Assembly (NCBI GenBank): GCA_040266255.1
Contig: JBDQEV010000001.1
Span: forward strand, 1-58,389
Direction: 5' to 3'
Length of the DNA stretch: 58,389 nt
Origin: Gammaproteobacteria bacterium
Lineage (GTDB): Bacteria > Pseudomonadota > Gammaproteobacteria > Comchoanobacterales > Comchoanobacteraceae
The notes beneath the pieces were generated by a model. It did not search any database. It saw nothing but the letters and a program-made list of their open reading frames with translations, and had not been told where the DNA came from. Shown one piece after another: positions 23,117 through 51,197 of this stretch. The translations under genes were made by a program, and so were the position numbers. Every line of letters begins with the position of its first letter. Position 1 is the stretch's first letter.

Positions 23117-25747
23117 ATGGCAAGGTATTTAAAATGCCTGTTGATTTTAATGTTGGTGTCATTACCAAGTCTCATATTTGCAAATAATGATGCAGCAGAA
23201 AATATCAGGACCATTGATTTTTTGAGTAAAAATCTTTTTACTGGTGACGTTATTGCAGCCAATACAAATGATCCATCACATATTTATTTGGGGTTGATTT
23301 TTGGTGAAATTGCTGGGCTGACGGGCAGCAGTATGGTAATGGAAATGTTCCGTATCTTTAACGTGGGTGTTTCTTTGGCATTGGTTATTTCTGTGATTTA
23401 TGTTGGTATTGCTGGCTTTTCTTCTTTACCAAGTGAGGGCGGAATGATTGGTTCTGGTCGCGCAAGTCCATTTATGATATTTAGAACAATAGCGGGGTTT
23501 GCGCTTGTTGCACCAACACCAACTGGCTACTCCTTGATTCAAAAGTTTGTAATGAATGTTGTGCTTTCTGGGGTTGTGGTTGCTAACTATGGTTGGAATC
23601 AGGTATTAGATAGCTTTTCTGAGAATAGTGGTTTACCAGAGGTTGTTGTAACCGGGCCAGATACAAGTGCATTATTAGCGAAGCCTAAAGACATAAAGAT
23701 ACAGTCAGATTCATCTGTGGGAGGAGAATTTGTGTATTCCCTACTGCAGCAGACTGAGAGTGGTAGTGTGATGGATAGCTTTCTGTGGCGGCTGAACGAA
23801 GTTGCTGCAAATGCGCTTTCACTGGTTGAAAATGCTGATATGATAGGCGGAACATATTTAAGTGCGCCAAAGTTTTTCGATGCTTCAAGTACAGCTGATT
23901 TTAAGAACGGGATCATTAAGATTGAGGCTGAGTTTAATGCTGCAGGGCAATTATTCAGAGAAACAGTTCTACAGATTCAGTTAAATAGTTTAGATGATAC
24001 TAATACTGTTGAAAAGCGCAAAGAGTTAACCAAAGCAATTAAGTTTTATTTGTTGAAAATTTTAAACGATACATCAGCTAGGTATCAATTAGAGCTGTTG
24101 AAAAGAGGAACAGTTACCTCTTTGGGTAAAGTCGAAAAAAATGAAGCAAAGTCATTAAAGGATAGTGCAATGAGGGGGTTTGTAGCACAGGCCCCTATAG
24201 AAGAAATTAAAGGCCCTTTGGATCCTGTAGCTTGGAGAAATCAGGCAAAAGGTTGGGGTTGGCTTGGTGCTGGTGTGTATTATTTGCAATTTGAATCTGC
24301 CTTGAAACAAGATCAGAAACCAAAACAAGTACAAGAAAAATTTTGGTTGCCAACTAGTATTACGCTTACTAGCTATCCTTGGATTAAGCCAGGCAAGAGG
24401 TCAATCAGTTGTAATGAGAATCCTCAAGCTGAGTTGCCTAATGTTAATTGTTTGAAAAGAGCTAAAATCGACAATGATACCCTACCAGCTTGGTTAAAAT
24501 ACTATTTAGTTGATGGGGCCGGAAGCTCGACTTCTTTTCCTCGTTCTAAAACAGACTCTAGTCGTGCTAAGTATATTTTACAGAAATTAAACCAATCCCC
24601 AGCATATATTCAGAGCTTCCCTAAAGTTCATTTGCCTCATAGTAAAGGCTTTAGTGTAGATGCTGAAATACCATTGAATAATATGAAAACTATGTCTGGA
24701 ACTGTGTTGGATGCACTACTAAACCCAGTAGATAAAAGTACTAATCAGAGCTTTCAAGGGGAGTATAATTCGCCTCTAAAAACGGCAATGTATGTCGGTT
24801 TTAAAATGATGAGTGCTGCAAAAACCTATTGGTCTAGTACAAGAGATAAGATTTTTGATGAGATACATGCTACACAGGGGGCTGCATATGGCACTACAGC
24901 AGCTGTGTTAATGGTAAAGTCTGCATTTGATGTTTTGGTTCAAATCAATAAGGATAGGGCTACTAAACTCAGGGTGATGCAGGTAGATGAAATCTATGGT
25001 CGTAATATGCTAGGTAAGTTGCCATCTGCGCTGATAGATCCCATTATGGATATGGTCAATATTATGACATCTATTGCAAAATCAATTTTGGGAATATATT
25101 TACCATTAGGAAATGGATTAGCAACTGTATATTTCTTAGCGGGTGCAATTTTAGGGATTTATATTCCATTTATCCCATCTGTGATCTATATTTTTTCAAT
25201 CTTGGCATGGCTGTTTGCGGTGATTGAGTCTATGGTTGCGTCACCGTTGATTACTATTGGTATTGCACACCCGGAAGGGCAAGAGGTGATGGGACGAGGA
25301 GAGCAGGCTGTCATGTTGCTGGTTGGTGTATTTTTACGTCCAGTATTGTCGTTAGTAGGTATGTTAATTGCTGTCTCACTGAGTACGATTGCAGTTGAAC
25401 TGTATAATGATATCTATTTAAATATAATGCCACTGTATCTAGATATGTTATATAAAGATGATTTAAGTCATGCGTTATTTGTGATATTTTTTGCAGCTGG
25501 TTTTGTGATTTTATATGTTTATGCATTATTGGTTATCATTGAGCAATGTTATTCACTAATTTATATGGTTCCGGATAGAATTTTAAAGTGGCTAGGTGGT
25601 CAGGCAGATATGGCTGGCGCAGGTGTGGGTGGCGCATTGCAACAAATCTCTTCTGGCTTATCTCAAGACGCTGGGGCAGCAGGTCAGGCTTCAGGATCAC
25701 AGTCAACATCAGGTGTGCATCAAGATACAAATATTAACAGAAAATAG
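23117..25747 (+). CDS. dotA: DotA/TraY family inner-membrane protein, paralog 1 (ATG 23117; the ORF extends to TTG 23111)
   Basis: Signal peptide; 'DPSHIYLGLIFG', 'MFRIFNVG', 'FRTIAGFALVAPTPTGYSLIQ', 'GWLGAGVYY', 'WLFAVIESMVASPL..IAHPEGQEVMGRGEQ..VFLRP', 'IYMVPDRILKWLGG'. Confidence 0.9.
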   Translation: MARYLKCLLILMLVSLPSLIFANNDAAENIRTIDFLSKNLFTGDVIAANTNDPSHIYLGLIFGEIAGLTGSSMVMEMFRIFNVGVSLALVISVIYVGIAGFSSLPSEGGMIGSGRASPFMIFRTIAGFALVAPTPTGYSLIQKFVMNVVLSGVVVANYGWNQVLDSFSENSGLPEVVVTGPDTSALLAKPKDIKIQSDSSVGGEFVYSLLQQTESGSVMDSFLWRLNEVAANALSLVENADMIGGTYLSAPKFFDASSTADFKNGIIKIEAEFNAAGQLFRETVLQIQLNSLDDTNTVEKRKELTKAIKFYLLKILNDTSARYQLELLKRGTVTSLGKVEKNEAKSLKDSAMRGFVAQAPIEEIKGPLDPVAWRNQAKGWGWLGAGVYYLQFESALKQDQKPKQVQEKFWLPTSITLTSYPWIKPGKRSISCNENPQAELPNVNCLKRAKIDNDTLPAWLKYYLVDGAGSSTSFPRSKTDSSRAKYILQKLNQSPAYIQSFPKVHLPHSKGFSVDAEIPLNNMKTMSGTVLDALLNPVDKSTNQSFQGEYNSPLKTAMYVGFKMMSAAKTYWSSTRDKIFDEIHATQGAAYGTTAAVLMVKSAFDVLVQINKDRATKLRVMQVDEIYGRNMLGKLPSALIDPIMDMVNIMTSIAKSILGIYLPLGNGLATVYFLAGAILGIYIPFIPSVIYIFSILAWLFAVIESMVASPLITIGIAHPEGQEVMGRGEQAVMLLVGVFLRPVLSLVGMLIAVSLSTIAVELYNDIYLNIMPLYLDMLYKDDLSHALFVIFFAAGFVILYVYALLVIIEQCYSLIYMVPDRILKWLGGQADMAGAGVGGALQQISSGLSQDAGAAGQASGSQSTSGVHQDTNINRK

Positions 25748-25818
25748 ATAGGATCTAGATGATTTGTGATATTATAGGGTGCAATATTTATTTAGTTTTG
25801 ATACGATCAAGCTAGGCT

Positions 25819-26265
25819 ATGGAGTTTATCATGCGTTTTGGTTTTAGAAGTACTTTTAAGTCCTTATTTAATGTAAGATCTTGGATTGCTTGGAACTCTT
25901 TACGAGACAATGCATCTTTCATACGGGGTGCCTATCAATCAATTTTGAAGTCAAAACCTAAGTATGCAAAGCCTCAAACGTTTTCTGAGGCAGTTCAGCA
26001 GTATGGATACACTGAGGAGTTTTTAAAGCAACAGCACGAAAAGTTCTTGTTTGCATCTAGAGCTTATCTATGCGCCTTAACTGTAGGCTGTAGTTACTTA
26101 GGGTGGTTGGCTTATACACAAGCATATCTTTCAGCAGCAGTCATGCTACCTTTCAACTTTTTATTATTTAGCTTTTACTTTAGAGAGAGCTTTTGGGCAA
26201 TGCAGGTTGAAAAACGTAAATTGGGCCTGAGCTTTATCGATTGGGTCAATGGTCATTTAGGATGA
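25819..26265 (+). CDS. icmV: Dot/Icm inner-membrane protein IcmV
   Basis: 'LFNVRSW', 'TFSEAV', two TM segments, 'FW..QVEKRKLGLSFIDW'; ATGA-coupled to the following dotA. Confidence 0.9.
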   Translation: MEFIMRFGFRSTFKSLFNVRSWIAWNSLRDNASFIRGAYQSILKSKPKYAKPQTFSEAVQQYGYTEEFLKQQHEKFLFASRAYLCALTVGCSYLGWLAYTQAYLSAAVMLPFNFLLFSFYFRESFWAMQVEKRKLGLSFIDWVNGHLG

Positions 26266-29180
26266 GTTTTTTACGACAATATATTTATAAGTTTGCTTTA
26301 TTGGCAATAGCAGGTTTCTCTTGGGCAGATACTACTGTTAAGAGTCCTAAGACTGTAACTTTAGCCGATATCAGGGCAGTTGGTGATACTGAGGTCCTGG
26401 AAAGCTTTATTTTCTCCTTGTTAGATAAGACTCAAGATTTATCATATCAGTTTCTAGAAATTATTTTTGGACCTGTTGTGTCTAATACAGCGACAAACTT
26501 TTTGATTGCTGAGGTTTTTAAAGCCCTTAATATAGGCGTCTTATCAGTCATGTCGATTATTATTGGGTATAGTATTGTTTTATCTGTAATCGCTACTTCA
26601 CAAGATAGTACAGGCGCTTTTTCTCAACGAGTCAGCCCTTGGACATTATTTAGAACAGTGTTCGGTGTATCAATGATCCTCCCTTTAAACAATGGCTATT
26701 GTGCTTTGCAGGTTCTAGTTATGCAAGTTGTTCTAATGGGCATCGGTTTTGCTAATACAGCATGGGTGACTGCGGTTAACTATATCACGGATGTTTCTTC
26801 GTTGCGGCTTGAGTTGTCAGAGAGTGAAGTTAAAACAAGGAATAAGCTAGAAAATCAGTTAAAGCCATATGTTGCAGCATTGATTGAAGAGAATATTCAT
26901 CAATATACTAAAAACTGTGTTGTTTATGGTGCACTCTCGCAACACTTTAAACCAGGAGCGGTAAATCTTAAAGCTTTAAGCCCTTTAAATCCGACATATC
27001 AAACAACACTGACTGCATGCGCCTTGTTTGATTATGATACAAGGCGTGATAGTGGGCGGTCAGGTTTAGGGTATATTCAGAAAGATGGTGATAGAAATCA
27101 AGTTAATTCAAGATATTTAGCTCAAGTGAAGCTCTATCGCCCTACACTTGGAGATGATGGAACACCGACGTCTAATAACTGGAATTCACTTATACTTGAT
27201 ATGGAAGAAAAAGTTTCTCGTCAGGTGTTTAGGGCGATTAGGTCTTATGTAGAGGCTGTAAGTAGTATAGTCCCAAAAGATGGCGTCAAAGATCCAGTGA
27301 TATATCAAAACAAAAACGCTGCACAGTTAGGAACTAAATTAAGTTTTGATGCAATAATGGGCGGGGATACTGAAGGCTTGATGGTCGCCATTAAAAAGGA
27401 AACGGATAATCTACTACGTGCTATAAATAACAGTGATACAGAAAAACAGAAGTTTGAACGCATAATCAATCAAATTGCAAAAGAAGCTTTAGATGAGTTA
27501 GTTGCCTCTGTATTATCCACAATAGACACTGCAGCAATGACAGCCCAAGGGGTGAAATGGGCTAAGACAGGTGCCGATAGTACTAAAGCAAAAAAAGATG
27601 CTCAAGCAAAAGGCTGGCTAGCTGCTGGGATGCATTACAGAAAGTTTTTAGAAAAAGGTCAAGGCAAAGCTAGTGCTGATACCTTGCTTAAAGTGCCTGA
27701 TAATCTACCACCAATGCAATTAGCGCAGGTAATAGAGATACAATATAATAACCCAGTATTGCGAGCAGCTAAGTTAGATGTCGCAATACCTGCGTCCATT
27801 ATAGATAATATAGGTGCTATATCTGATGGGGCTAATAATTCAGCAAATTACGCCACTAATCGTGGGCTTATAATTGAAAATATTATCCCGAATATTAGTG
27901 GTAAGATAGGTTCAACAAAATGGATTTATGGAGCAGGTGTCGATAAACCAGTTAAGTATATGGTCATCATGATACAGAATGCCGCGCAGACTGTTTTAGG
28001 CTTGAAAATATTTGACCCTAGTGGAGGAGGAGTATTGTCAACTTTCCAGGCTAGTATCAGTACATTGAAAGAAGTGGTCGAAACAGGGGATGGGAACCTC
28101 ATAGAGGCGCAAAATGCCATCTCATCAAGCATATCTCCAGATAGAGGGCTATTAGCATCATTTGTTAGTGGGTATGTTGACCCTATTGATGCAGCAGCGC
28201 TGATGGGTAAGGACTTAATTTCGTTTGCAACAACTTATTATAGTCAGACTATAACGGCTTTATATCAGGAAATGAAAGACCTTGCATGGAGTCATTATGG
28301 TGCTATACTGCCAGTCGCTTTAGCTGCAGATGCTGCAACTGCTGCAGTCCACGCATCTCCAGGATGGCCAGGTGCAGTTGCTGCAAAGCTGGCAAAAGAT
28401 GTTACGATTGCAGGTTTAAATATAGCGTATGCTGGTACAAAAACTGCTTTGAATTTATATGTTCCTATGGGAACAGCTTTGGCAGGAATGTTTTTAGCCT
28501 TGGGTGTTATGTTGGGTGTTTATATTCCATTGATGCCATTCATGTTGTTCTTATTTGGTGCAGTGTCATGGTTGATGTCTGTTGCAGAAGCGTTAGTTGC
28601 AGCGCCATTGGTTGGTCTCGGTATTACTCATCCAGAAGGGCATGATTTACTAGGAAAGGCAGAGCAAGCAGTCATACTATTGTTAGGGGTATTTATTCGT
28701 CCAATTACAATTTTATTTGGACTATTCATGGCGATTTTAACGTCACAAGTGATATTTAAAATCTTCAATATTGCTTTTGCAGCAGTTGCAGTACAAGTGA
28801 TTGCGGATGCAATGACTAATAATGCGAATCAAGTTAACCTCATGTTAGGCATAGTCGTTGGTGGGACTCTGTTAGTCTATGTCTATGCAATGATTAGTAT
28901 AATAGAGCAGTCCTATGCACTCATTTATCAGGTTCCAGATCGTATTTTAAGATGGGTTGGTGGGCCTCAAGATCAATCTATGGTTGGCCAGTTAGCTGAG
29001 CAGGCTAAAGGTGAGTCTCAACAGGCTGCAGGTCAAGTTGGCTCTGGTGCAGGTGCAGCAACTAAGGGACCAGATATACAAGCTCAAGGTTCAGGAGGCA
29101 ATTATCAAGCGCCTAAGACAGGAGATAAAGACGATCAAAATGATAAGGGCACTAAGGTAGACAGTAGTGATAATACATAA
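26262..29180 (+). CDS. dotA: DotA/TraY family protein, paralog 2 (most canonical, coupled to icmV)
   Basis: 'DLSYQFLEIIFG', 'SPWTLFRTVFGVSMILPLNNGYCALQVLVM', 'GWLAAGMHY', 'GITHPEGHDLLGKAEQ..VFIRP', 'IYQVPDRILRWVGG'; ATG overlaps the icmV TGA. Confidence 0.93.
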   Translation: MSFLRQYIYKFALLAIAGFSWADTTVKSPKTVTLADIRAVGDTEVLESFIFSLLDKTQDLSYQFLEIIFGPVVSNTATNFLIAEVFKALNIGVLSVMSIIIGYSIVLSVIATSQDSTGAFSQRVSPWTLFRTVFGVSMILPLNNGYCALQVLVMQVVLMGIGFANTAWVTAVNYITDVSSLRLELSESEVKTRNKLENQLKPYVAALIEENIHQYTKNCVVYGALSQHFKPGAVNLKALSPLNPTYQTTLTACALFDYDTRRDSGRSGLGYIQKDGDRNQVNSRYLAQVKLYRPTLGDDGTPTSNNWNSLILDMEEKVSRQVFRAIRSYVEAVSSIVPKDGVKDPVIYQNKNAAQLGTKLSFDAIMGGDTEGLMVAIKKETDNLLRAINNSDTEKQKFERIINQIAKEALDELVASVLSTIDTAAMTAQGVKWAKTGADSTKAKKDAQAKGWLAAGMHYRKFLEKGQGKASADTLLKVPDNLPPMQLAQVIEIQYNNPVLRAAKLDVAIPASIIDNIGAISDGANNSANYATNRGLIIENIIPNISGKIGSTKWIYGAGVDKPVKYMVIMIQNAAQTVLGLKIFDPSGGGVLSTFQASISTLKEVVETGDGNLIEAQNAISSSISPDRGLLASFVSGYVDPIDAAALMGKDLISFATTYYSQTITALYQEMKDLAWSHYGAILPVALAADAATAAVHASPGWPGAVAAKLAKDVTIAGLNIAYAGTKTALNLYVPMGTALAGMFLALGVMLGVYIPLMPFMLFLFGAVSWLMSVAEALVAAPLVGLGITHPEGHDLLGKAEQAVILLLGVFIRPITILFGLFMAILTSQVIFKIFNIAFAAVAVQVIADAMTNNANQVNLMLGIVVGGTLLVYVYAMISIIEQSYALIYQVPDRILRWVGGPQDQSMVGQLAEQAKGESQQAAGQVGSGAGAATKGPDIQAQGSGGNYQAPKTGDKDDQNDKGTKVDSSDNT

Positions 29181-31671
29181 AGCATACTTCAAAAAACAGC
29201 CCTATACTTGGCTTTATGTAATTTGCTTTTTGATTTTTGCACCAGCAGCTGCAAGTGTTGGAAAGTCAGAAGTCATTTTGAATCAAATTTTTGGACAAGT
29301 AGCTGGTTTAGGTAGCTTGACAGATAAAAAATCTGTTATGGGTGATATATTCAGAATTGTGAATGTTTCTATTGCGATTTTTGCAGGAATGGTTGCTTCT
29401 ATAACAGTTTATCAGGGTGTTGTACAAACTGCTGCTCAGGGAGTATTCATGGGCAAAAGGGGGAGTCAATCCAGTTTTTTTACGGTATTTAGAACGCTTT
29501 CAGGGTTAGCATTAGTCATGCCCATTTATAGTGGTTACTCAGTTCTACAGTATGGAGTCATGTCTATTGCGCTTCAAAGTATTACTGTAGCAGATAATAT
29601 TTCAGAGATTATATTGGCAACACCTCAGGCACGAGTAGGTCAGCTGTTTGAAAGAGTATTAGATCTTGATACCATTCAGGCAAATCAGCAAGAATCAGAG
29701 AAAGAGCGAAAAATAACTTCATCAGTTTCAGGTGAAAAGGTAAAAACATATTATGCTATGTTAGCTGATATTGCATATTGTTCAGTAGAAAATAAAAGTA
29801 CAGTTATTCCTAGAGCAGAAATAAACGGTGAGACTCTAGTATTTAATAATGTAGAGTCTTGCGGAAAGGGGTACACCCTACAGATTGAAAACCCTCAATT
29901 AAAAGATGTGATCTCCAAGTTAACTAATTTGACACTCGGTTCTTTATATAATGAAGCACTCATCAATAAAACAAGCAACAATAACCCAAGCACAACAGAT
30001 AAGGAAAAAAAAGCTAAAGAAGAACTGGCAAAAGAAGAACTGGCAAAAGTAGCGGTTAAGATAGCAAAGCGTGATGCACCAGCATTTGTTTTGCCAACGA
30101 CTAAACTTGAAGGAGGTAGCTATACAAAAGATTGGATTCAATTTCCTTGGCATTACACGTCGCTGAGTATGGGATGTCCTCTCCAAGATCCATCTAAAAA
30201 TTATACGGCATGCGTAGACTCATTTACGGATCTGAATAGCGCGATAGCTCCTTCTGATGTTAGCGATGTTAGCCCTTCTCAACCATATATTACAACAAAA
30301 ATGATTGATACGGCACTAAAAGCAGCAGCCCCTAGCGTCAGCGCTAGTCAATCTTCAACGACTGATATATCTAAATTTTCTCAGCACTTCAATCAGCTAT
30401 CATTTAATGATATTGACCCAAAAGGTGGGCAAGTGCTGAGTTCATGGAATAATCCAACTACTTCAGGTGTGTCAATTTTTAAACAAAATACTGCCATTCA
30501 AGCGCCTTTACAGGCTGTTTTGGGTGATACATTAAAAATCTGGTATGATGCATTCTATGTCAATGTATCTGCAATGCTTGCTAACCCACCCCTTGAGTTA
30601 GGAAAGCTATCCATCAGTTTATCATCTCATATGACAATGTTCATGTTTACGATTGCGCGTGATGTGATGTCAGCTCAAATTAAGGCAACACTTGATACAT
30701 ATTGGGTGATGTTTGCACTTAAGATAAGAAGATATGCCGTAGAAGCATGGCTGGCTGCTAACTTAGAATATCAGTGGGATATATTTTATTGCTTGAATCC
30801 TTTTGCACCAAATTCAAGTACGCGTGTTCTTATGTGCCCTCCGACATTAATTCCTTACCCGCCTCCGATGATGATCGGGCCTAATCCAGTGTGGGCAGCT
30901 GCAGTCGCAATAAACATGAGCACTATAGCCATAATGTCAGTCCAATATGCTGTTCCTGTTGCAGTTAATACTGCTATAGAGCAAACAACTCAGCTTCATT
31001 GGTCTCTGATTTCTCAAGCATCACTATCTTCACAGTATCAAGGTATTATTATTGCATCAATATCACCACTAATGGTATTAACTAATGTTTTATCAATCTG
31101 GCTGCCACTACTTCCATCTCTGACATATTATGTAGCGGTAATAGGTTGGGTGCTTGCTGTAGTAGAAGCAATGGTTGCTTTTCCATTAACAGCATTGGGA
31201 ATGAGTTTTCCACAAGGACATGATTTTTTAGGATCAGCTCAACAGTCATTAATTTTACTCCTGAGCTTATTTATTAGGGCGCCTCTAATAGTCATTGGTT
31301 TTTATATTGGAATGCAGTTAATTTCTGCTGGTATGGCAGGCATTTTATTAGCTTTAAATAATATTTTCCAGCCGATGCTTGAGTCACCTTCAGTAGCGTC
31401 TGCTGTAGCGCTGATAGCCACTATGGTTATGGTTATTTATATATCTGCAACGTTAATTACATATTGCTTAAGTGCTGCATATCGGATTCCAAGTATGGTC
31501 ATTAGGTGGGTAGGGGCTCAAGCTGATACAGGATCAGAGCAACAGAGTATTCAACGAATTTACTCCTTGCTAAATCAACAACAGGGCTCTGCTCTATCTT
31601 CAGTTCAACAGTCTGCACAAAGTGCTGAACAAGGTGGTCAAGCGGTTTCGGGGCAAATGCGTGTTCAATAG
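29167..31671 (+). CDS. dotA: DotA/TraY family protein, paralog 3 (divergent)
   Basis: 'ILNQIFG', 'IFRIVN', 'FRTLSGLALVMPIYSGYSVLQ', 'WVLAVVEAMVAFPL..SFPQGHDFLGSAQQ..LFIRAP', 'RIPSMVIRWVG'. Confidence 0.87.
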   Translation: MIIHKAYFKKQPYTWLYVICFLIFAPAAASVGKSEVILNQIFGQVAGLGSLTDKKSVMGDIFRIVNVSIAIFAGMVASITVYQGVVQTAAQGVFMGKRGSQSSFFTVFRTLSGLALVMPIYSGYSVLQYGVMSIALQSITVADNISEIILATPQARVGQLFERVLDLDTIQANQQESEKERKITSSVSGEKVKTYYAMLADIAYCSVENKSTVIPRAEINGETLVFNNVESCGKGYTLQIENPQLKDVISKLTNLTLGSLYNEALINKTSNNNPSTTDKEKKAKEELAKEELAKVAVKIAKRDAPAFVLPTTKLEGGSYTKDWIQFPWHYTSLSMGCPLQDPSKNYTACVDSFTDLNSAIAPSDVSDVSPSQPYITTKMIDTALKAAAPSVSASQSSTTDISKFSQHFNQLSFNDIDPKGGQVLSSWNNPTTSGVSIFKQNTAIQAPLQAVLGDTLKIWYDAFYVNVSAMLANPPLELGKLSISLSSHMTMFMFTIARDVMSAQIKATLDTYWVMFALKIRRYAVEAWLAANLEYQWDIFYCLNPFAPNSSTRVLMCPPTLIPYPPPMMIGPNPVWAAAVAINMSTIAIMSVQYAVPVAVNTAIEQTTQLHWSLISQASLSSQYQGIIIASISPLMVLTNVLSIWLPLLPSLTYYVAVIGWVLAVVEAMVAFPLTALGMSFPQGHDFLGSAQQSLILLLSLFIRAPLIVIGFYIGMQLISAGMAGILLALNNIFQPMLESPSVASAVALIATMVMVIYISATLITYCLSAAYRIPSMVIRWVGAQADTGSEQQSIQRIYSLLNQQQGSALSSVQQSAQSAEQGGQAVSGQMRVQ
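30016..30049 (+). repeat. Perfect 15-bp direct repeat (AAAGAAGAACTGGCA x2 + AAAG) encoding KEELA-KEELA-K in dotA paralog 3
   Basis: Read directly at 30016-30030 and 30031-30045. Confidence 0.9.
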
Positions 31672-34408
31672 ATTATTAAAGATTTTTATATTGATGCTTA
31701 TTTCTGTTTGCTATGCAGCAGGAGATGAAGCAGGTGGATTAAATCAAGCGGCAGCTGTTTTATTGATGGATAACTACCAGTATTTTAATGTAACAGGTTT
31801 TATTTCAAGTCTGATACGGATCTATAATATTGGTATTATTTCAGTACTCACTATTGCAGCAATTGGTTCACTATCATATTTAGGTGCTCTGGCAGCTTCT
31901 GAAGGTAAGGGAATTGGTCGAAAAATAAGTACTTGGGTTGCAATAAGAACATTGGTTGGCTTTACACTATTAGTACCTTTAGGGCCATCTTCAATGAGTG
32001 GTGCACAGCATGTTGTCATTGCAATTGTGAACTCCAGTATAGAAGCAACTGAGTTTATGGCAACGCAACTTGCAGGTAGTCCCAAAACTCTATCACCCAT
32101 AACAGATCATGTGCCAGAGGAGGTAAAACCGGATGAGATAGCAAATGTTTATGTAAGCGTGGTACAGATGGCACTGTGTAATATGATTCAGAATAAAGCT
32201 GATCCTTATATGGTAAAGTATGATTCAGACAACAAAGCTTTTTACTTTTCTCCAGCAAGTACGGATGTTAAGAAATGCGGCCACATTAAAAGTAAAGAAT
32301 CATTTGCCTCAAAAGGTGTGCTAGAAAATATATATGAGGATGTTCTCAGTTGGTATAAAGTTGCTAATAGCGCGATAGAGCTTCAAAAAGCAAAGGATAA
32401 AGCAGAGGCAGCAGAAAAGGCAGGAGTAGCTGTCAGTCCTAAAAAGCTCTTAGAAGTGACCAAAAGTGTCACTACAGTTTGTGCTGATGAGAAAGCAAAA
32501 TCATGTAAGCCATTGAATGAAGTGTTTAAGATAAAGAATGCAATTGCTTTAGTAGAGCACTTTAGTACAGATGCACCTGTTCAACCTGCTACAGATAATA
32601 CAGAATATGGTTGGATAGAGAAAATTCTAGATAGGGATCACTTAATGGCATCTCTACTGTCAAGTGAAAAAGTTGAGTTTGATAGCAATATTGTGAGTGT
32701 GCCAAGCTTAGAACGGGACATAGATTTTTCGATTGATAATATTAATGCTAATAGTATCAGTGGCTTAACTGCCTTAATTAGTAAAAAAATCCCTGAGGTA
32801 AAAGGCACACTGTTGACGAGTCAATCTCTTACTTCTCCTAAGTTTGACGGATTAATGCAATCCAATTGGCTTTATGAAGATGAAAAAACACAGATTGACC
32901 CGGCTAATGTATCGATTGATGTGAATTTACTGCCAAAGGCAATTAATGTTTTAGCAAAGGGTGTTATTCAAGACTTAAAACGTTTAATTGAGAGTAAAAA
33001 TCCTGTAATGGCTACATCTAAAGTAGGGTTAAATATTATTCAAAAGGTAGAAACTTATTGGAATGTTTCAACAAAAGACCTAGCAGAACAGAACTCTCAG
33101 TTGGGTAAGGTGCAATATGCAATGCAACAGGCATCGCAGGCGGCGGCTTATGGCGCATATGCTGCAGCTAAATTTGGATTAAAACCAGGTGGTGCTTGGC
33201 ATACTCCTGCATATATAGCGATAGCAGTCTTTGATAATCTCTTTACGATGCTAAATATTCTAGTAGATATTGATTATGCTAACCTATTTAAGTGGGAGCC
33301 ACTTGGTGCTGCATTGAGTACATTGTTTTTCATTTGGGGTGCTTTTTATGGTGTGTTACTGCCTGTCGTTCCATCACTAATTGTGATCTTTGCATTAATT
33401 GGTTGGTTATTGCTAATTGTTGAAGCAATATTAGCTTCTCCATTAATTGCATTAGGATTAGCGCATCCTAGCGGTCAGCAATTTTTTGGAGCATCAGAAC
33501 AGTCATCAATGCTACTGTTGATGTTGTTCTTACGACCAATGCTTATATTTGTAGGTGTTATTGTCTCTATTGCCATCTCTCATTGCGGTCTCACGATGTT
33601 AAACTATGCAATAGAGGTTTTCATTCTAGATCTTATTACAGGGACTAGTTGGTGGATTGATGGTGTGATGCTTTTGATGCTGATGGTAATCTATGGTTAT
33701 ATAGCATTTTTAGTTTTGGTACAAAGCTATACTGTTATTGGTATGTTGCCGGATAAAGTCAGTGCATGGATTGGCTCAGGGCCTCTCGGTGGGGATAGTC
33801 CTCTGCAACAAATATTAGCAGTTAGAGCAGGCGTAGAATCAGCAGCACAAAAAGCAGCTCAAGGTGCTGGCGCTTCAGTATCAGATAAAGGTTCTGCAAA
33901 TATGCAGATGAATGTAGCCGAATTAGCTGAATTAGATGATAAACGTACAGAAGACAAAGATCTCATAAAGGATCTAGAGGATAGCAAAGAAGATTTTCAT
34001 ACTCAATTAACTGATAAAGCAATAGATGATCTTGGTCTTAAAGATCTTGAAAAAAGTGGTAAAGTTCCAGACAGAATAAAGGTGTTGACAAAACAAGATA
34101 TCGAAGAGGCTCGTGCAAATGGTACGTTGAAACTAAGCCAAAGTAAGATTGATGATATGTTTAAAGGAAAAGATAAGTTATACTTTGTGAAAGAAACGGG
34201 CTTTAAGAGCTTGGCGGAGACTCAAGAAGACTATAGAAATCAATATGCTCATAGTACGCAAGTCATTACGAGTGCTCCAGCTTCAATAGGGATTTTTGCA
34301 GAACATTTTTACAATAAGCATATGAAACAACTTGCAGTTAGTAGAGTTAATCGTGCAAAGCAGAAATATCAGTTTAACTTGAGTGACTATCTTAAAGATG
34401 TTGAATAA
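31661..34408 (+). CDS. dotA: DotA/TraY family protein, paralog 4, with long C-terminal extension (probable GTG start 31661; the ORF extends to 31622)
   Basis: Signal peptide; 'IRIYNIG', 'WVAIRTLVGFTLLVP', 'WLLLIVEAILASPL..LAHPSGQQFFGASEQ..LFLRP', 'LPDKVSAWIG'. Confidence 0.87.
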   Translation: MFNRLLKIFILMLISVCYAAGDEAGGLNQAAAVLLMDNYQYFNVTGFISSLIRIYNIGIISVLTIAAIGSLSYLGALAASEGKGIGRKISTWVAIRTLVGFTLLVPLGPSSMSGAQHVVIAIVNSSIEATEFMATQLAGSPKTLSPITDHVPEEVKPDEIANVYVSVVQMALCNMIQNKADPYMVKYDSDNKAFYFSPASTDVKKCGHIKSKESFASKGVLENIYEDVLSWYKVANSAIELQKAKDKAEAAEKAGVAVSPKKLLEVTKSVTTVCADEKAKSCKPLNEVFKIKNAIALVEHFSTDAPVQPATDNTEYGWIEKILDRDHLMASLLSSEKVEFDSNIVSVPSLERDIDFSIDNINANSISGLTALISKKIPEVKGTLLTSQSLTSPKFDGLMQSNWLYEDEKTQIDPANVSIDVNLLPKAINVLAKGVIQDLKRLIESKNPVMATSKVGLNIIQKVETYWNVSTKDLAEQNSQLGKVQYAMQQASQAAAYGAYAAAKFGLKPGGAWHTPAYIAIAVFDNLFTMLNILVDIDYANLFKWEPLGAALSTLFFIWGAFYGVLLPVVPSLIVIFALIGWLLLIVEAILASPLIALGLAHPSGQQFFGASEQSSMLLLMLFLRPMLIFVGVIVSIAISHCGLTMLNYAIEVFILDLITGTSWWIDGVMLLMLMVIYGYIAFLVLVQSYTVIGMLPDKVSAWIGSGPLGGDSPLQQILAVRAGVESAAQKAAQGAGASVSDKGSANMQMNVAELAELDDKRTEDKDLIKDLEDSKEDFHTQLTDKAIDDLGLKDLEKSGKVPDRIKVLTKQDIEEARANGTLKLSQSKIDDMFKGKDKLYFVKETGFKSLAETQEDYRNQYAHSTQVITSAPASIGIFAEHFYNKHMKQLAVSRVNRAKQKYQFNLSDYLKDVE

Positions 34409-38702: not shown

Positions 38703-39050
38703 ATGTTAAAGTCAATCGCAGAAAAACTGATTAAGTACTGTAAAGAAAACCAATGGACCTTTGTGCTTAGAGGTAAGGAATGCTCATATGATGAAATGTT
38801 TGCAGATTTCGGGGTATTACCAGGCATGCTCAAAAGAGCAGAAAAGTATACCATATTGTGTGAGGGGGCTTCGATAGGTGCAGAGTTTACTGATGATGAA
38901 AAAACATTGCTGGGTTATAAAGTCAAGTTAGAGAAATGTCACATCAAAGAGCCGGTCTTAATGTTGTATTTGTTATACGTGCTTGATAATATTGTTAATG
39001 CGGGGCATAATGGGTCTGAAATACAATTAGATCAATTAACATATGAGTAG
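38703..39050 (+). CDS. icmS: Dot/Icm adaptor IcmS
   Basis: 115 aa acidic protein, 'TFVLRGKECSYDEMFADFGVLPGMLKRAEK..LC', C-terminal 'LDQLTYE'; follows icmT. Confidence 0.9.
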   Translation: MLKSIAEKLIKYCKENQWTFVLRGKECSYDEMFADFGVLPGMLKRAEKYTILCEGASIGAEFTDDEKTLLGYKVKLEKCHIKEPVLMLYLLYVLDNIVNAGHNGSEIQLDQLTYE

Positions 39051-39570
39051 AATTTCAAGCAACTTTTTAATGCTATTGACACAGATTAATCAGTTAATAG
39101 TTAGTGCAAAAATTGAAAGAACGAAAGAAGAGTTAGAAAGGCTATCAAGTCTTCTTAGCACTAGTGGGATTAAATCAGATCAGTTATCTGAAGCTGATTT
39201 TCAAACCGGTACTGCTCAACACTATCGAGATAGAGCCAAGGTTATTTTAGATTGTGAGAGTAGTGAAGTCTTTCACAGTGGAGATAAGGTGACAAGGTAT
39301 GCAGTTCTTGCGCATGTAGAGGGTCCAAAAGGGATTTCGCCTAACTACCAGCTAAATGGCAGGCAAATATTTAATAATAAGGTCGAGGCAGAGTCTTTTG
39401 CAGTGCTAAATAGCTCTGATCAGATGAAGCTTTTTGTGATGCCGCTGAATGTGTGCGACAAGGATCTGCCAAATATACATAAGTTGTCTTTAAGGTGCTT
39501 AGGTATTAACAGTCTTGTCTTACAGCAGTTGCTGAATGAGCAGTCTGCAAATTGCAAAGAGTTTGCCTGA
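39043..39570 (+). CDS. Putative highly divergent IcmQ
   Basis: Lies between icmS and icmP; weak echoes of IcmQ motifs ('SSNFLMLL' ~ KSNFLRVI, 'GRQIFNNKVE' ~ SRPIYADEED, 'KLSLR' ~ LLTLK). Confidence 0.5.
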   Translation: MSRISSNFLMLLTQINQLIVSAKIERTKEELERLSSLLSTSGIKSDQLSEADFQTGTAQHYRDRAKVILDCESSEVFHSGDKVTRYAVLAHVEGPKGISPNYQLNGRQIFNNKVEAESFAVLNSSDQMKLFVMPLNVCDKDLPNIHKLSLRCLGINSLVLQQLLNEQSANCKEFA

Positions 39571-39700
39571 GAAGTTGAATTGTTTTAGGCGAATCAAATA
39601 AGTTGCTGCTTAATATAAACTATTCCTTGAAAGTCCCAGTAGTGTTTGAATTTTAGTCAAGTGCACTGTAGACTGAAAAGGTCTTCAATTGGATTTTTTC

Positions 39701-40855
39701 GTGAAAGGTGGCGGTGGGCAACAGCAACAGCCTGATCAGGCTCAAGACACGTTTTTACTGATCGGCTTTATAGTCGTCGTGGTGATTCTTGCGTGGTATA
39801 ACTACTCAGATGCGATAGTAAAGGTTATATTCTTATTTCGAGTTGCACTAGGAACTGCGTTGCTTTATGTGCTTGAACATGCTGATGTGTTATTTGAGCT
39901 CGTAGACTCAAGGTTGCTTGCAATTGATGATTTAAGGTCTTCTCTTACTGCAATGCGTTCTACGCCATATGGTGCAGTTGATTATGACAGATTGAAGCTT
40001 ATCTCAGAAGTATATGGCCATGCTTTTGCGTTACCAAATATTATCTTAGGGGTTTTCGGTGTTGCATATTCTTTATTCTTCCATCGATTTTCTCGTTTTT
40101 CAAAAGAGCACTCGATGCATTCATTGAGCCATCAGGAAGTAAAAAATTGGCCACAAATCGCATGTGTCCTAGGTAAGAATTTGATCAAAGCTGATGTTGA
40201 GACAGGTCCATGGAGAATGAGTGATAGGCCATTAGACTTTGCTAAAAAGCATAACTTAATTGAGCCTGAAACAGTGAAGGGAAAAGTAGTGGCTAGGCTA
40301 GATAAGGCAAAGTCAAGACAGATTTTTGCACTACAAATGGGGCCTGCTTGGAGTGGGTTAGAAGATATGCCGCCGTATGCTTTGGCGCTATTTGCAATTT
40401 TTGCAGCTCGAGGTGAGGGTGACGCAAAAGGTGCAAGAAAGCTACTTCGCCAGATTTCTGCTTCAGCAGGAGAGGGCGTATTGAACTTTGGTGGAACTAG
40501 ATTACTTTTGTTCAAACATGTTCGATCTTCACAAAAAGTGGGTCGTGCTGTTGGTCCTCATGCTTATTTATATACAGTAATGGCATCTATGCTTGAGTTA
40601 TCTAGAGAGGAAGGTGTGCTATCAGTTTCAGAATTCTTATGGTTAAAGGCGGTTGATCGTCAGCTATGGTATATGTTGTCCTCGGTAGGAAGAACAACTG
40701 CTTTTGTTGAAGTATCTGCACCTTATTCACATTGGCTGGTTGAAAAGCGTTTACGGCGTCCATTGAAGGTGCCAGTCTTTGATCAAGCAATTGAGGCATT
40801 AGATGACGCACTATCTAATATAGTCATAGATCCTGAAGAGATTAAAAATGGTTGA
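39701..40855 (+). CDS. icmP: Dot/Icm coupling-complex protein IcmP/DotM (probable GTG 39701; the ORF extends to TTG 39689)
   Basis: Q-rich N-terminus and TM segments; 'WPQI', 'GPWRM..PLDFAKK', 'FALQMGP.W', 'HAYLYTVMASML', 'FLWLKAVDRQLWYML', 'HWLVE'. Confidence 0.95.
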   Translation: MKGGGGQQQQPDQAQDTFLLIGFIVVVVILAWYNYSDAIVKVIFLFRVALGTALLYVLEHADVLFELVDSRLLAIDDLRSSLTAMRSTPYGAVDYDRLKLISEVYGHAFALPNIILGVFGVAYSLFFHRFSRFSKEHSMHSLSHQEVKNWPQIACVLGKNLIKADVETGPWRMSDRPLDFAKKHNLIEPETVKGKVVARLDKAKSRQIFALQMGPAWSGLEDMPPYALALFAIFAARGEGDAKGARKLLRQISASAGEGVLNFGGTRLLLFKHVRSSQKVGRAVGPHAYLYTVMASMLELSREEGVLSVSEFLWLKAVDRQLWYMLSSVGRTTAFVEVSAPYSHWLVEKRLRRPLKVPVFDQAIEALDDALSNIVIDPEEIKNG

Positions 40856-43112
40856 TAGAGGTGTAAGGCGAGAGCAGGAGCAAAATGCCAGCTTATTGGT
40901 TCGTGATACTAGGTCGTTTTCACAGAAGTTTTCAGACTTATTTAATAAGCCAGTATCTGCAGCAGCAGTGATATTCAGTACTGCAGTTGCTGCAGTCTTT
41001 CTGCCTGCATTCGCAGATATGCTGTTTTTAATCAATATTGTGTTTGTTTCTTTAGTGCTATTTAGGCATATAAAATTGCCATTTCGAGTGCCTAAAGCTT
41101 CTGGTATCAGTGATTTTAATGACTTAAACCCTGGAACTGGGAAACCAAATAAAGCAAGTGGTATTTATTACTTTGGGAATGAGAAAACAGATAAAAAAGA
41201 ACTCTGGTTTGGTGATACAGATATGCGTACGCACGTACTGATCTTCGGTTCTACAGGTTCAGGTAAAACAGTTTTTCTCATCGGGTTGGCATTCAATGCT
41301 TTGGTGCAAGCAAGTGGTTTTATTTATGTAGATGGTAAGGGTGATAATAGCTTATACGCGAATATATTTTCTATTGTTCGCTATTTAGGTCGAGAAGACG
41401 ATTTGCTGCTGATCAACTTTATGACTGGAGCAAAAGACATCATTGGTCCACAAGAAAAGCGTTTATCTAATACCTTAAATCCATTTGCAAGTGGCTCATC
41501 TAGTATGCTTGCAAACTTAGTGACTGGCATGATGGATTCGTCATCTGGGAGTGGTGATGGTGATATGTGGAAAGGTCGTGCGATTGCGTTTGTTGAAGCT
41601 CTGTTAAAGGTATTGGTTGCGATGAGAGACGCTGGCCATATTCTACTTGATGCCAATACAATTCGTAATTATTTCTCATTAGAGCGTCTTGAAGCAATGG
41701 CTGATAATGTATTCATTAGAGATAATGGACAATACTCAATTGATATGGGCTCACTACCAAGTGAAATCAAAGAGCCAATCATGAATTATTTATCGACATT
41801 GCCGGGTTATCAAAAAGGAAAGCGAGGTCAGCAAGTATCACAGGTGTTTGAGCAGCATGGTTATATTATAATGCAGCTTACACGTATCTTTACCTCTTTG
41901 GCAGATACTTATGGGCATATTTTAAGAACAAAGCTTGCAGAGGTTGATCTGAGAGATGTTGTATTAAATAGAAGAATTTTAGTTGTGCTCTTGCCTGCGT
42001 TGGAAAAGTCTCCAGATGAGCTGTCTAATCTAGGTAAAGTTGTGATTGCATCCATGCGCTCTATGATGGCAGCAGGTCTTGGAGACTCAGTAGAGGGGGA
42101 CTATAGAGATTTAATCTTATCAAAGCCTACAAATGCGGAAACGCCATTTTTATGTATTCTAGATGAGTATGGTTACTATGCTGTAAAAGGTTTTGCTGTT
42201 GTGCCTGCTCAGGCTAGGTCTTTGGGTTTCTCAGTTGTGTTTGCAGGGCAGGATTTGCCAGCCTTCCAAAAAGCATCAAAAGAAGAGGCTGCATCAATTG
42301 GTGCTAATACAAATATTAAAATTTGTATGAAGTTAGAAGATCCTACAGATACCTGGGAGTTCTTCATGAAAGGTGCAGGTGAGGCATATGTTACAGCAGT
42401 TGATAGCTTTAGTGCATCTCAAAACAGTATTTCTAATGCATACTTAGATACCAAATCGGCAAAGACAGAAAAACGAGCTAGAATTGACTTACTTGATCTT
42501 AAAGATCAGGGCTTAGGTGAAGCGCATATCTTCTTCAAGTCAGATATAGTTAGAGCTAAGACTTTTTATGCAAATCCTCCGCCATGTAAGAGAATGCGGT
42601 TGAATCAGTTCTTGAAAGTCGAGCCACCAGAGGATACCTACTTATATGATTTAGTGAAGGGAATTGAAGATTTTCAAGAGATGAGTTTTTCACAGTTGCC
42701 AGCAGTTGAAAATGATACAGTGCTTTCTGGAATGGTTAACGCTCTAAATGCTGATGACAACTATATTCAGGCAGCAATTAATATGCTGATGTCTAATGAA
42801 GGTGAGGCATTATTAACAGAAGACATTGTAGATGAAGGTGAAGGTAGTATTGACGTATTCTCTAGGTATCAAGTAGACGGGGTCACCTTATCTGCTATTA
42901 TGCCCAAGAGTGAAATTAGCAAGGTGCTGAATTTTTGTGGTAGATTTGCAGGTCTTTCTGAAACACAGTCTCAGAAAGAGGTTGACCAGCAGCTAGAAAG
43001 TATTCGTAAAATGACGGAGTACAGCATGAGCATGAATCAAGAGGATGTTGAGAGTTGCATAGAGGGTATAAAATATGTCAATGAGCATCTTAAGTTAGAG
43101 GAGGAGAAGTAG
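40848..43112 (+). CDS. icmO: Type IVB coupling protein IcmO/DotL
   Basis: 'RTHVLIFGSTGSGKT', 'YVDGKGD', 'DGDMWKGRAI', 'ILDEYGYYAVKGFAVVPAQARSLGF'. Confidence 0.97.
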   Translation: MVDRGVRREQEQNASLLVRDTRSFSQKFSDLFNKPVSAAAVIFSTAVAAVFLPAFADMLFLINIVFVSLVLFRHIKLPFRVPKASGISDFNDLNPGTGKPNKASGIYYFGNEKTDKKELWFGDTDMRTHVLIFGSTGSGKTVFLIGLAFNALVQASGFIYVDGKGDNSLYANIFSIVRYLGREDDLLLINFMTGAKDIIGPQEKRLSNTLNPFASGSSSMLANLVTGMMDSSSGSGDGDMWKGRAIAFVEALLKVLVAMRDAGHILLDANTIRNYFSLERLEAMADNVFIRDNGQYSIDMGSLPSEIKEPIMNYLSTLPGYQKGKRGQQVSQVFEQHGYIIMQLTRIFTSLADTYGHILRTKLAEVDLRDVVLNRRILVVLLPALEKSPDELSNLGKVVIASMRSMMAAGLGDSVEGDYRDLILSKPTNAETPFLCILDEYGYYAVKGFAVVPAQARSLGFSVVFAGQDLPAFQKASKEEAASIGANTNIKICMKLEDPTDTWEFFMKGAGEAYVTAVDSFSASQNSISNAYLDTKSAKTEKRARIDLLDLKDQGLGEAHIFFKSDIVRAKTFYANPPPCKRMRLNQFLKVEPPEDTYLYDLVKGIEDFQEMSFSQLPAVENDTVLSGMVNALNADDNYIQAAINMLMSNEGEALLTEDIVDEGEGSIDVFSRYQVDGVTLSAIMPKSEISKVLNFCGRFAGLSETQSQKEVDQQLESIRKMTEYSMSMNQEDVESCIEGIKYVNEHLKLEEEK

Positions 43113-43113
43113 T

Positions 43114-43584
43114 ATGTGGAATAAGATTAAAATGTTAGCATTTGTATCAATAGTGTCATTGGCGCAAATTAATATTTCTAAAATAGAGTCAGACTTAAGA
43201 GCGTTTAATGCATATTTGACGCAAAATGGAGAAGAGGTTACAGTTGTTGTACCAATTAGTTCTATGTTTACAGGAGAAACAACTTTTGTGCAGAATAGAG
43301 CAGGCCCATTAGTAGAGTCCTTGATTGGCTTAATTGCACAGTCTAAAGGTATTGTGCAACTAGAAGCGCTTATCACACCTACAGCGGATGAGCAGCAGGC
43401 GCTCAGCAGCTCAATTGCTTATACTCAGGTAGTAGAGCTATCTAAAGTCTTATTGCAAGGTGGTGGTGAAATTAGTTATGCACCACTGACTGTAAAACTT
43501 CAACCTAGAAATAATGATTACGGCTTCTGGAAACGCTTTGGAACTGAAAATAGATTTATCCAAATGACATTGAGTATTGATTAA
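43114..43584 (+). CDS. icmN: IcmN/DotK-like OmpA-fold periplasmic protein lacking a lipoprotein Cys
   Basis: Position after icmO; 'LTQNGEEVTVVVPISSMF' resembles the IcmN/OmpA_C start and 'ENRFIQMTL' resembles the OmpA_C NRRVEI end. Confidence 0.6.
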   Translation: MWNKIKMLAFVSIVSLAQINISKIESDLRAFNAYLTQNGEEVTVVVPISSMFTGETTFVQNRAGPLVESLIGLIAQSKGIVQLEALITPTADEQQALSSSIAYTQVVELSKVLLQGGGEISYAPLTVKLQPRNNDYGFWKRFGTENRFIQMTLSID

Positions 43585-43615
43585 TATTGTATATTCTAAA
43601 ATGTTAAAGTTTGCT

Positions 43616-43645
43616 TTGCATAAGATTTGATTTTTATGAGATAAT
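43616..43645 (+). promoter_or_regulatory. Putative internal sigma70 promoter upstream of icmL
   Basis: TTGCAT (43616-43621), 18 bp spacer, GATAAT (43640-43645) with extended TGn, in an 87-bp AT-rich gap. Confidence 0.3.
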
Positions 43646-43671
43646 GTTAATAGATAAGTGGGGATACCTAA

Positions 43672-44930: not shown

Positions 44931-44932
44931 AA

Positions 44933-45877: not shown

Positions 45878-45879
45878 CA

Positions 45880-48681: not shown

Positions 48682-48695
48682 TTTGGGAGATAGTA

Positions 48696-50734: not shown

Positions 50735-50752
50735 CTTTAACTGGAGAACATA

Positions 50753-51184: not shown

Positions 51185-51197
51185 ACTGGAACTTAGA

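What the first reader, a model, noticed from the sequence alone, without database searches (positions are those of the whole stretch)
23117..34408. Array of four full-length, diverged dotA/traY paralogs in one Dot/Icm locus
Seen: four intact ORFs of 834-979 aa arranged dotA1-icmV-dotA2-dotA3-dotA4; icmV and copies 2-4 have overlapping stop and start codons. Each copy has a signal peptide, the N-terminal TM block (R-T-x-x-G...P) and the C-terminal TM block (W..VE...P..[HF]P.G.....G..[EQ]Q....F.R / P....W.G). The central ~400-550 aa are barely alignable by eye. Known: L. pneumophila and C. burnetii have a single essential dotA. DotA is the IncI TraY homologue, and the variable internal region of TraY sets entry-exclusion specificity. 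Inference: this is an old expansion kept by selection, giving either a hetero-oligomeric inner-membrane platform or interchangeable DotA subunits with different periplasmic/surface domains, possibly for host range or substrate class.
Basis: partly seen in the sequence, partly recalled or inferred. Interest (0 to 1): 0.9.

Follow-up and report, generated by a model that had tools for sequence, protein, structure and literature searches.

The report
Family-wide array of DotA channel paralogs
A small-genome marine bacterium, related to choanoflagellate-associated 'Comchoano' symbionts, carries four ancient, intact and very different copies of dotA, the gene for the central five-subunit channel of its type IV secretion machine, and its whole family keeps two to four such copies, which likely assemble into one mixed channel as has been suspected but never shown for Rickettsia and its relatives.

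Summary
Confirmed. Four intact DotA/TraY genes (all pass TIGR04346; 20-33% identical) lie in one Dot/Icm locus with a single icmX. This is a family trait of Ca. Comchoanobacterales: 25 of 25 family genomes examined carry 2-4 copies (17 have three, five have four, none has one). The copies form old orthologous classes that follow the dotB/C/D tree; class B (copy 3) is kept once in every genome and has its own fixed residues. Published metatranscriptome counts show all four orthologs transcribed at similar levels, together about equal to icmX. DotA is now known to be the pentameric VirB6 counterpart, so this parallels the 4-5 tandem rvhB6 genes of Rickettsiales. Best reading: a hetero-pentameric channel (0.5); co-assembly is untested. 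A 2022 supplement labels four DotA per genome without discussing them. New variant of a known kind.

The parts
23117..25747 (+). dotA copy 1 (upstream of icmV; extra copy close to class A), 876 aa from ATG
   Evidence: TIGR04346 161 bits; clade with the upstream copies of G001, G008, G023, 100/100
25819..26265 (+). icmV, 148 aa; its stop overlaps the ATG of copy 2
   Evidence: NF038219 68 bits, below cut-off 100; junction sequence; found beside the array in every family locus that reaches it
26262..29180 (+). dotA copy 2 (class A, the most conserved copy), 972 aa
   Evidence: TIGR04346 236 bits; only PDB match is L. pneumophila DotA 9NGY, E 3e-38; class A keeps 83% of the 70 columns conserved in single-copy DotA
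29167..31671 (+). dotA copy 3 (class B, one per genome family-wide), 834 aa; carries the class-B proline (P634) and lacks the otherwise invariant His
   Evidence: TIGR04346 154 bits; clade 100/97; signature counts; model pLDDT 76.5, Z 20.3 to 9NGY DotA
31661..34408 (+). dotA copy 4 (class C, long C-terminal tail of about 200 aa), 915 aa from the second GTG
   Evidence: TIGR04346 146 bits; clade of nine, 100/98; model pLDDT 68.6, Z 21.9 to 9NGY DotA; tail lengths
5461..7281 (-). single icmX (cap partner of DotA), 606 aa, enlarged and diverged
   Evidence: missed by NF038225 but the only hit in the genome, E 6e-17, of an HMM built from family and outgroup IcmX without it; lies two genes after icmW
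7637..8068 (-). icmW
   Evidence: PF23130 93 bits
34418..36905 (-). dotD-dotC-dotB, convergent on the array
   Evidence: PF16816, PF16932; TIGR02524 above cut-off
38703..54863 (+). rest of the Dot/Icm locus: icmS, dotM, dotL, dotI twice, dotH, dotG, dotF, icmC/icmD-like genes, dotN, and a 1016-aa ATPase taken as dotO from size, place and a weak TraC hit
30198..30265 (+). minor allele with four substitutions and a net 9-nt in-frame shortening, at the edge of a low-confidence loop of the copy-3 extended domain
   Evidence: one contig of run X1, depth 16 against 45; pLDDT below 50 at residues 350-400

Best explanation
The four genes are ancient, vertically inherited DotA paralogs of one Dot/Icm machine that likely co-assemble into a single hetero-pentameric protochannel under one IcmX cap. 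Shown here: four intact DotA-family genes, one icmX, one set of the other core genes, orthologous classes kept across the family, a class-B sequence signature, a DotA-like predicted fold for the two most diverged copies. Taken from papers: DotA fills five positions on the machine's axis, and the orthologous genes are all transcribed in the sea. Inferred: after tandem duplication the copies specialised for different positions in the ring (class A close to the ancestral subunit; class B with a new proline in a hydrophobic helix and loss of an otherwise invariant His; class C with a long tail), so that A and B can no longer be lost. An asymmetric ring would offer different outer faces to IcmX and the DotG cage and could fix where the closed channel opens; that last step is speculation.
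For: Classes A and B each present in 25 of 25 family genomes, B exactly once (22 in a 100/97 clade; 3 fragmentary ones by class HMM); no genome with one copy and none with more than four, i.e. never above the five positions. No homogenisation: own copies as a clade rejected, p-AU 7e-8; sub-trees match dotB/C/D. Class B gained Pro at the position matching L. pneumophila 741 (23 of 24, against 0 of 42 single-copy, 1 of 26 class A, 0 of 14 class C) and lost His788 (1 of 24 against 42 of 42); classes B and C keep only 62% of the columns conserved in single-copy DotA, class A 83%, the pattern expected of subunits no longer bound to pack against themselves. One icmX for four dotA here and one in most relatives. 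Published read counts: 15, 17, 13, 11 and 23, 27, 14, 18 for the four orthologs in two genomes, equal per kb within noise (p 0.84, 0.24); summed dotA over icmX per kb 1.09 (0.71-1.67) and 1.19 (0.81-1.74), as a 5:5 complex would want. Overlapping reading frames suggest one transcript for icmV to copy 4. Predicted folds match DotA 9NGY at Z 20.3 and 21.9, next TrwI/VirB6 at 9.7-9.9.
Against: No direct evidence of co-assembly. Equal transcript levels also follow from an operon and from a mixture of homo-pentameric machines; counts are small, pooled over a population, come from relatives and do not track stoichiometry for other subunits (dotG, dotB, dotO all near 23-29 reads per kb). DotA and IcmX meet mainly through their extended domains (PMC12501162), which are only 21-25% identical between the window's copies, so one IcmX pentamer would have to fit four unlike surfaces. 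Copy number varies from 2 to 4, so no fixed stoichiometry holds for the family; a three-copy relative inside the clade (L082) has no clear class B; the class-A copy of G024 is split by one TGA. Seven genomes have two or more icmX. Class-B support drops to 84 in a thinned tree with long-branch warnings; classes were named after the tree was seen, and class A is a grade picked by position and short branch, not a supported clade.
Confidence: 0.5

Rival explanations
1. Each paralog forms its own homo-pentamer, and a cell builds several kinds of machine at once or in turn (different substrates, life stages or host compartments), all capped by the same IcmX.
For: All copies keep the full DotA core and a DotA-like predicted fold; cores of all four are under purifying selection; transcript sums fit a mixed population as well; copy number is flexible; the same alternative is posed for rvhB6 (PMC8035066, passage).
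Against: No loss or turnover of classes A and B in 25 genomes of 18 genera that probably differ in host (host differences not tested); class B has lost residues that are invariant in single-copy DotA; reading frames overlap, and a consensus scan gave no excess of internal promoters (33 found, 39.8 expected; weak test); the middle domain is no more variable than in single-copy DotA.
Confidence: 0.25
2. Only class A builds the channel; classes B and C and the extra copies have become accessory, secreted or surface-exposed proteins that touch the host, as reported for two of the four VirB6 paralogs of Anaplasma.
For: Class A is much the most conserved (41% mean within-class core identity against 29% for B and C); class C has long tails, median 252 aa, up to 578; DotA is released into culture supernatants (PMC12501162, passage); VirB6-3 and -4 are surface exposed (PMC7648143, passages).
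Against: B and C keep both helical blocks and the invariant R, P, Q, W, E, P, G core residues; class A alone has 0.3-0.4 of the icmX transcript level while the sum matches it.
Confidence: 0.18
3. The copies are redundant and kept for dosage or by drift; the dotA locus simply duplicates often and nothing distinguishes the copies functionally.
For: Tandem dotA pairs or trios in at least 17 of 94 other Gammaproteobacteria with a DotA/TraY match, in about 14 separate clades, some 94% identical.
Against: Genomes of 0.9-1.6 Mb keep 8-11 kb of such genes intact since the family's root; 1 interrupted copy among the 82 ORFs collected; class-specific fixed residues; no gene conversion.
Confidence: 0.06
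4. The array is an assembly or binning artefact.
For: The genome is a 47-contig draft; no single read-derived contig spans the whole stretch.
Against: Copies share no long DNA identity; even depth; same order in named genomes, one of them complete.
Confidence: 0.01

Closest known systems
[quoted passage not shown] 2025, PMC12501162)
   Same: Same family (TIGR04346), same layout of N-terminal membrane helices, extended domain and C-terminal hydrophobic helices; icmV neighbour; full Dot/Icm context; predicted folds match at Z 20-22.
   Different: One gene and a homo-pentamer there; four genes at 20-33% identity and one icmX here; none passes the DotA equivalog cut-off; extended domains in the family are longer (median 480-560 aa against 361 in single-copy relatives).
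Tandem rvhB6/virB6 paralogs of Rickettsiales (4 in Anaplasmataceae, 5 in Rickettsiaceae; PMC7648143, PMC8035066, PMC12407924)
   Same: The same structural position (the pentameric VirB6-type subunit) is expanded in tandem in small-genome host-associated bacteria; copies about 80% diverged, all expressed, some with long tails; mixed versus separate assembly is the open question there too.
   Different: A different class of type IV system and no sequence-level kinship (no TrbL/VirB6 Pfam hit; only fold-level Z about 10 to TrwI), so the expansion is independent; Rickettsiales lack VirB5 whereas IcmX is kept here.
pT4SSi of Ca. Comchoanobacter bicostacola and Ca. Synchoanobacter obligatus (Needham et al. 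2022, PMC9418006)
   Same: Orthologous four-gene array in the same order (L065, L066); Supplementary Data 9 carries eight DotA labels, four per genome, and read counts.
   Different: The main text has no occurrence of 'dotA' or 'traY'; no classes, family survey or mechanism in the passages and supplement parts read. Figure 4a, which I could not see, probably draws the four genes.
Bartonella Trw trwJ-trwI-trwH repeats (PMC2883598)
   Same: Tandem amplification that includes the VirB6 homologue in a host-contact type IV system.
   Different: There the VirB5 gene is co-amplified and is the diversified one, copy number varies and recombination blurs orthology; here icmX is unlinked and mostly single and the dotA classes keep clear orthology.
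IncI/IncL/M TraY and ExcA entry exclusion (PMC4416936)
   Same: Same protein family; TraY is the cognate partner that sets exclusion specificity.
   Different: Plasmid conjugation with one traY; the Comchoano system is reported to lack a relaxase (PMC9418006); nothing here points to exclusion.

Membership tests
DotA/TraY family (TIGR04346) | Score above the curated cut-off of 100 bits | tested here: met
   161, 236, 154, 146 bits
DotA equivalog (NF033886) | Score above 500 bits | tested here: not met
   284, 338, 167, 136 bits; three single-copy outgroup proteins score 521-622. Lowers 'same function as a lone DotA', not family membership
DotA/TraY family | N-terminal membrane helices, extended domain, C-terminal hydrophobic helices in the DotA fold | tested here: met
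   Models of copies 3 and 4: only Foldseek match at E<=0.001 is 9NGY; Z 20.3, rmsd 3.8 over 379; Z 21.9, rmsd 4.0 over 368. Copies 1 and 2 were not folded; the alignments used for folding included single-copy DotA rows
Dot/Icm type IVB system | Core genes dotB, C, D, F, G, H, I, L, M, N, O, icmS, V, W, X in the genome | tested here: met
   dotO by size, place and a weak hit only
DotA-IcmX protochannel | Forms a pentamer on the machine's axis | not testable with these tools
DotA-IcmX protochannel | Beta-hairpin and loop 205-220 that lock into IcmX; hydrophobic neck L719/I722/F725/M729 | tested here: inconclusive
   Neck positions mapped by offset are not conserved even among single-copy DotA; class A has Q/K/E and class B Q/hydrophobic/F there. 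The hairpin was not mapped
Rickettsiales rvhB6 array | VirB6/TrbL sequence family within a VirB-type system | tested here: not met
   No Pfam hit for any copy; works like it, is not a member
Rickettsiales rvhB6 array | Several tandem, strongly diverged, co-expressed paralogs conserved across a whole lineage | tested here: met
   expression from published counts for orthologs
Bartonella trwJIH-type cassette amplification | VirB5 counterpart amplified together with the VirB6 counterpart | tested here: not met
   One unlinked icmX in G000; one in 21 and two or more in 7 of the 28 family genomes with a match, of 31 searched
TraY/ExcA entry exclusion | Conjugative element with relaxase and cognate excA | not tested
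   Relaxase absence is taken from PMC9418006 for two relatives

The most novel reading that the evidence does not exclude
Type IV secretion systems of small-genome, host-dependent bacteria have at least twice, in unrelated system classes (Rickettsiales rvhB6 and Comchoanobacterales DotA), turned the five-fold symmetric axial channel into an obligate hetero-pentamer with position-specific subunits, and the many younger tandem dotA pairs across Gammaproteobacteria are snapshots of that path from homo- to hetero-oligomer.
Probability: 0.35. Interest if true: 0.85.

Novelty: new variant of a known kind. Interest (0 to 1): 0.63.

Why it matters
DotA was only recently shown to be the pentameric gate of the Dot/Icm channel and the counterpart of VirB6, and textbook systems have one gene for it. 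A family that has kept two to four specialised copies since its root gives an independent replicate of the unexplained rvhB6 arrays of Rickettsia, Anaplasma, Ehrlichia and Wolbachia. Because the copies fall into clean classes, and because other lineages hold pairs from 94% down to 33% identity, the question 'mixed ring or separate machines' can be put to structure prediction, co-expression and cryo-EM along a graded series. It also warns that single-copy dotA cannot be assumed in surveys of uncultured Dot/Icm carriers.

Tried and rejected
Complex prediction of class A with class B cores: tool not available, no result. Sequencing runs: no RNA holder listed for the window's own DNA, no evidence either way; runs X2-X4 gave only short pieces that do not bridge the dotA junctions. 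Many independent origins of the third and fourth copies: suggested by the free trees but not established; all upstream copies as one clade is not rejected (p-AU 0.38) and a single ancestral third copy is borderline (p-AU 0.0497). dN/dS: synonymous sites are saturated in all pairs (pS 0.60-0.86), so no test of positive selection. Diversifying selection special to the array's middle domains: rejected as an inference, single-copy DotA behaves alike. Fused DotA-DotA proteins suggested by open frames of 1926 and 2306 aa in G006 and G015: each has a stop between two in-frame genes. The 458-aa ORF beside dotD as IcmX: rejected. Neck-residue argument: inconclusive. Promoter and terminator scan: nothing above chance. 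A single-protein scan of genome contigs found nothing; the alignment did. Order-level surveys around G029 and G027 held only 4 and 1 genomes. The homologue searches added depth but no context. Bao et al. 2009 was not held. Literature searches that found no description of dotA paralog arrays: ('dota' is swamped by radiochemistry papers; subscription journals are mostly missing; bioRxiv supplements were closed and the supplement with T4BSS copy numbers of 10.1101/852004 could not be seen).
Full report
1. The observation. Four uninterrupted ORFs flank icmV as described. All pass TIGR04346 DotA_TraY (161, 236, 154, 146 bits; cut-off 100), none the stricter DotA equivalog, and Pfam has no model for them. 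Local identity between copies is 20-33% and DNA similarity is limited to 122 nt or less at under 80%. The 957-kb draft genome holds no further copy and one icmX, at window 5461-7281, found with a home-made profile at E 6e-17. The rest of a Dot/Icm locus follows downstream. Depth is even in the one run that covers the array, which may be its source; two named genomes, one complete, have the same four-gene order.

2. Lineage and spread. The closest titled relatives are Ca. Comchoanobacter bicostacola and Ca. Synchoanobacter obligatus (L065, L066), so the family is Ca. Comchoanobacteraceae/Comchoanobacterales, described as obligate associates of a marine choanoflagellate (PMC9418006; abstract, passages and two supplement parts read). 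29 of 30 other family genomes match TIGR04346; the miss is 86% complete. I fetched the loci of the 25 family genomes, the window's included: 17 have three copies, five have four, two have two, one has at least two in fragments; seven of these arrays are split over two contigs. The six further genomes were not fetched by handle.

3. History. A tree of the two conserved blocks (74 rows with both blocks, of 82 ORFs; eight partial ones left out) puts copy 3 in a clade with exactly one gene from each of 22 genomes (class B, 100/97); the three remaining genomes have fragments that score best as class B (leave-one-out 64 of 64). Copy 4 lies in a nine-member clade (100/98), with a second long-tailed group of four whose union with it is supported only in the quick trees (class C). 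Copy 2 is the short-branched icmV-adjacent gene (class A, a grade). Within each class the branching repeats the dotB/C/D tree. The window's four copies as one clade are rejected (p-AU 7e-8). Whether third and fourth copies arose once or several times is open (p-AU 0.38 and 0.0497). All family copies form one clade among 132 rows (SH-aLRT 99), which also takes in a three-copy array from outside the family, L082, without a clear class B. In a thinned tree class-B support is 84.

4. Selection and divergence. Against congeneric orthologs the four cores are 54-64% identical (dN 0.30-0.43, like cysS 0.36 and dotC 0.29) with saturated dS; the middles are 22-32% identical. That contrast is ordinary for DotA: pairs of single-copy genes with 50-59% core identity have 29% in the middle, array classes 24-33%. 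Of 70 columns conserved in 42 relatives with one copy in the fetched locus, class A keeps 83%, extra copies 74%, classes B and C 62%. Class B has a proline at the position matching Legionella residue 741 in 23 of 24 members against 0 of 42, 1 of 26 and 0 of 14, and has lost His788 (1 of 24 against 42 of 42): a new fixed feature, not only decay. Class C has long tails.

5. Structure. Yue et al. 2025 (PMC12501162, passages) and a commentary (PMC12595440, whole text) show DotA as a pentamer under an IcmX pentamer, closed at rest, resembling VirB6-VirB5; a review adopts the names DotA-B6 and IcmX-B5 (PMC12857230, passages). Models of copies 3 and 4 (pLDDT 76.5, 68.6) match only 9NGY significantly (Z 20.3 and 21.9, next TrwI/VirB6 at 9.7-9.9). 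Co-assembly could not be modelled.

6. Expression. No RNA run is listed for the window's own DNA. Supplementary Data 9 of PMC9418006 gives reads per gene; its gene-name column is shifted against the rows, so I matched by coordinates to the ORFs of L065 and L066. The four orthologs have 15, 17, 13, 11 reads and icmX 34 in one genome; 23, 27, 14, 18 and two icmX genes 34 and 5 in the other. Per kb the copies do not differ significantly and their sum is 1.09 and 1.19 times icmX. So no copy is silent; the sum fits shared use of five positions but does not tell mixed rings from mixed machines.

7. Outside the family. Among 400 Gammaproteobacteria drawn evenly by family, 94 outside the family match TIGR04346 (at most two candidates scored per genome). 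I fetched 40 of the 94, chosen for double or weak hits: 17, from 12 families, hold tandem arrays, 14 with two copies (one of them with a split copy) and three with three; the 13 intact pairs are 33-94% identical. Apart from G061, whose ORFs repeat those of L082, these form their own small clades, about 14 with those. Titled Legionella, Coxiella and Rickettsiella loci are single, except one uncultured Legionellaceae locus with two. So dotA duplicates repeatedly, and this family is the oldest, most diverged and only family-wide case seen in these samples. Unchecked notes of this scan report DotA-like trios in Micavibrio relatives and VirB6-like arrays in archaea and cyanobacteria; I did not test them.

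8. How it likely works. Duplicated, co-transcribed subunits of a homo-pentamer would enter the same rings from the start; position-specific changes can then make each copy needed. One-per-genome retention of A and B, the class-B signature, relaxed conservation of residues invariant in single-copy DotA, a single IcmX, matching transcript sums and a ceiling below five all fit this; none proves it (0.5). Separate homo-pentameric machines (0.25) and one channel subunit plus accessory or surface copies (0.18) remain.

9. What is known. Rickettsiales carry four or five tandem virB6 paralogs, up to about 80% diverged and co-transcribed, and whether they mix is stated as open (PMC8035066, PMC7648143, PMC12407924; passages). 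Bartonella co-amplifies trwJ, I and H (PMC2883598, passages). TraY is the cognate partner of ExcA (PMC4416936, passages). A review of these endosymbionts lists DotI as duplicated and does not mention DotA duplication in the passages found (PMC11338181; its figure was not seen). The 2022 Comchoano paper labels DotA eight times in a supplement and never in the main text. Five searches found no paper on dotA paralog arrays, within a library that lacks most subscription papers.

10. Verdict. Real, old, family-wide and expressed; a new variant of the Dot/Icm system that converges on the rickettsial VirB6 arrays. Interest 0.63.

Noticed in passing
window 49384-51184: Four small adjacent membrane genes, three with DUF6750 hits and three with weak TraQ hits (IcmC/IcmD-like); the published table labels IcmD three times in a relative. 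A second small expansion in the same machine.
   Followed up: no
window 43672-44930: Two tandem dotI/icmL genes, as known for Coxiella (PMC11338181 passage).
   Followed up: partly
window 5461-7281 and family genomes: IcmX open frames are mostly 550-950 aa in the family against about 380-400 in three outgroup loci, and there are two or more copies in 7 genomes, tandem in five; in L066's genome the second copy has far fewer reads (5 against 34).
   Followed up: partly
window 7282-7644: A 120-aa secreted-looking ORF between icmW and icmX with no family hit; outgroup loci L048 and L050 also have an unnamed gene there.
   Followed up: no
window 37006-38382: A 458-aa ORF between dotD and icmS with no Pfam or NCBIfam hit, with homologues near dotD in nine other family genomes; by eye a methyltransferase-like N-terminus (recalled motif, untested).
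   Followed up: partly
window 30024 and 30198-30265: The only in-frame indel variants seen in 15 kb of run X1 both fall in the extended domain of copy 3; two events in one run.
   Followed up: partly
L063:1-2912 (G024): The class-A copy is split by one in-frame TGA in a 64%-complete genome; error or true break not known.
   Followed up: no
L033:10942-15957 (G003): A class-C copy of 1671 aa with a 578-aa C-terminal tail, recalling the long last paralog of Anaplasma arrays.
   Followed up: no
L156, L158, L160, L170: In several young arrays outside the family the duplicated unit is icmV plus dotA, whereas the family keeps one icmV for 2-4 dotA.
   Followed up: partly
PMC9418006 Supplementary Data 9: The pT4SSi gene-name column is shifted against the rows as held here, so labels fall on neighbouring genes.
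   Followed up: yes
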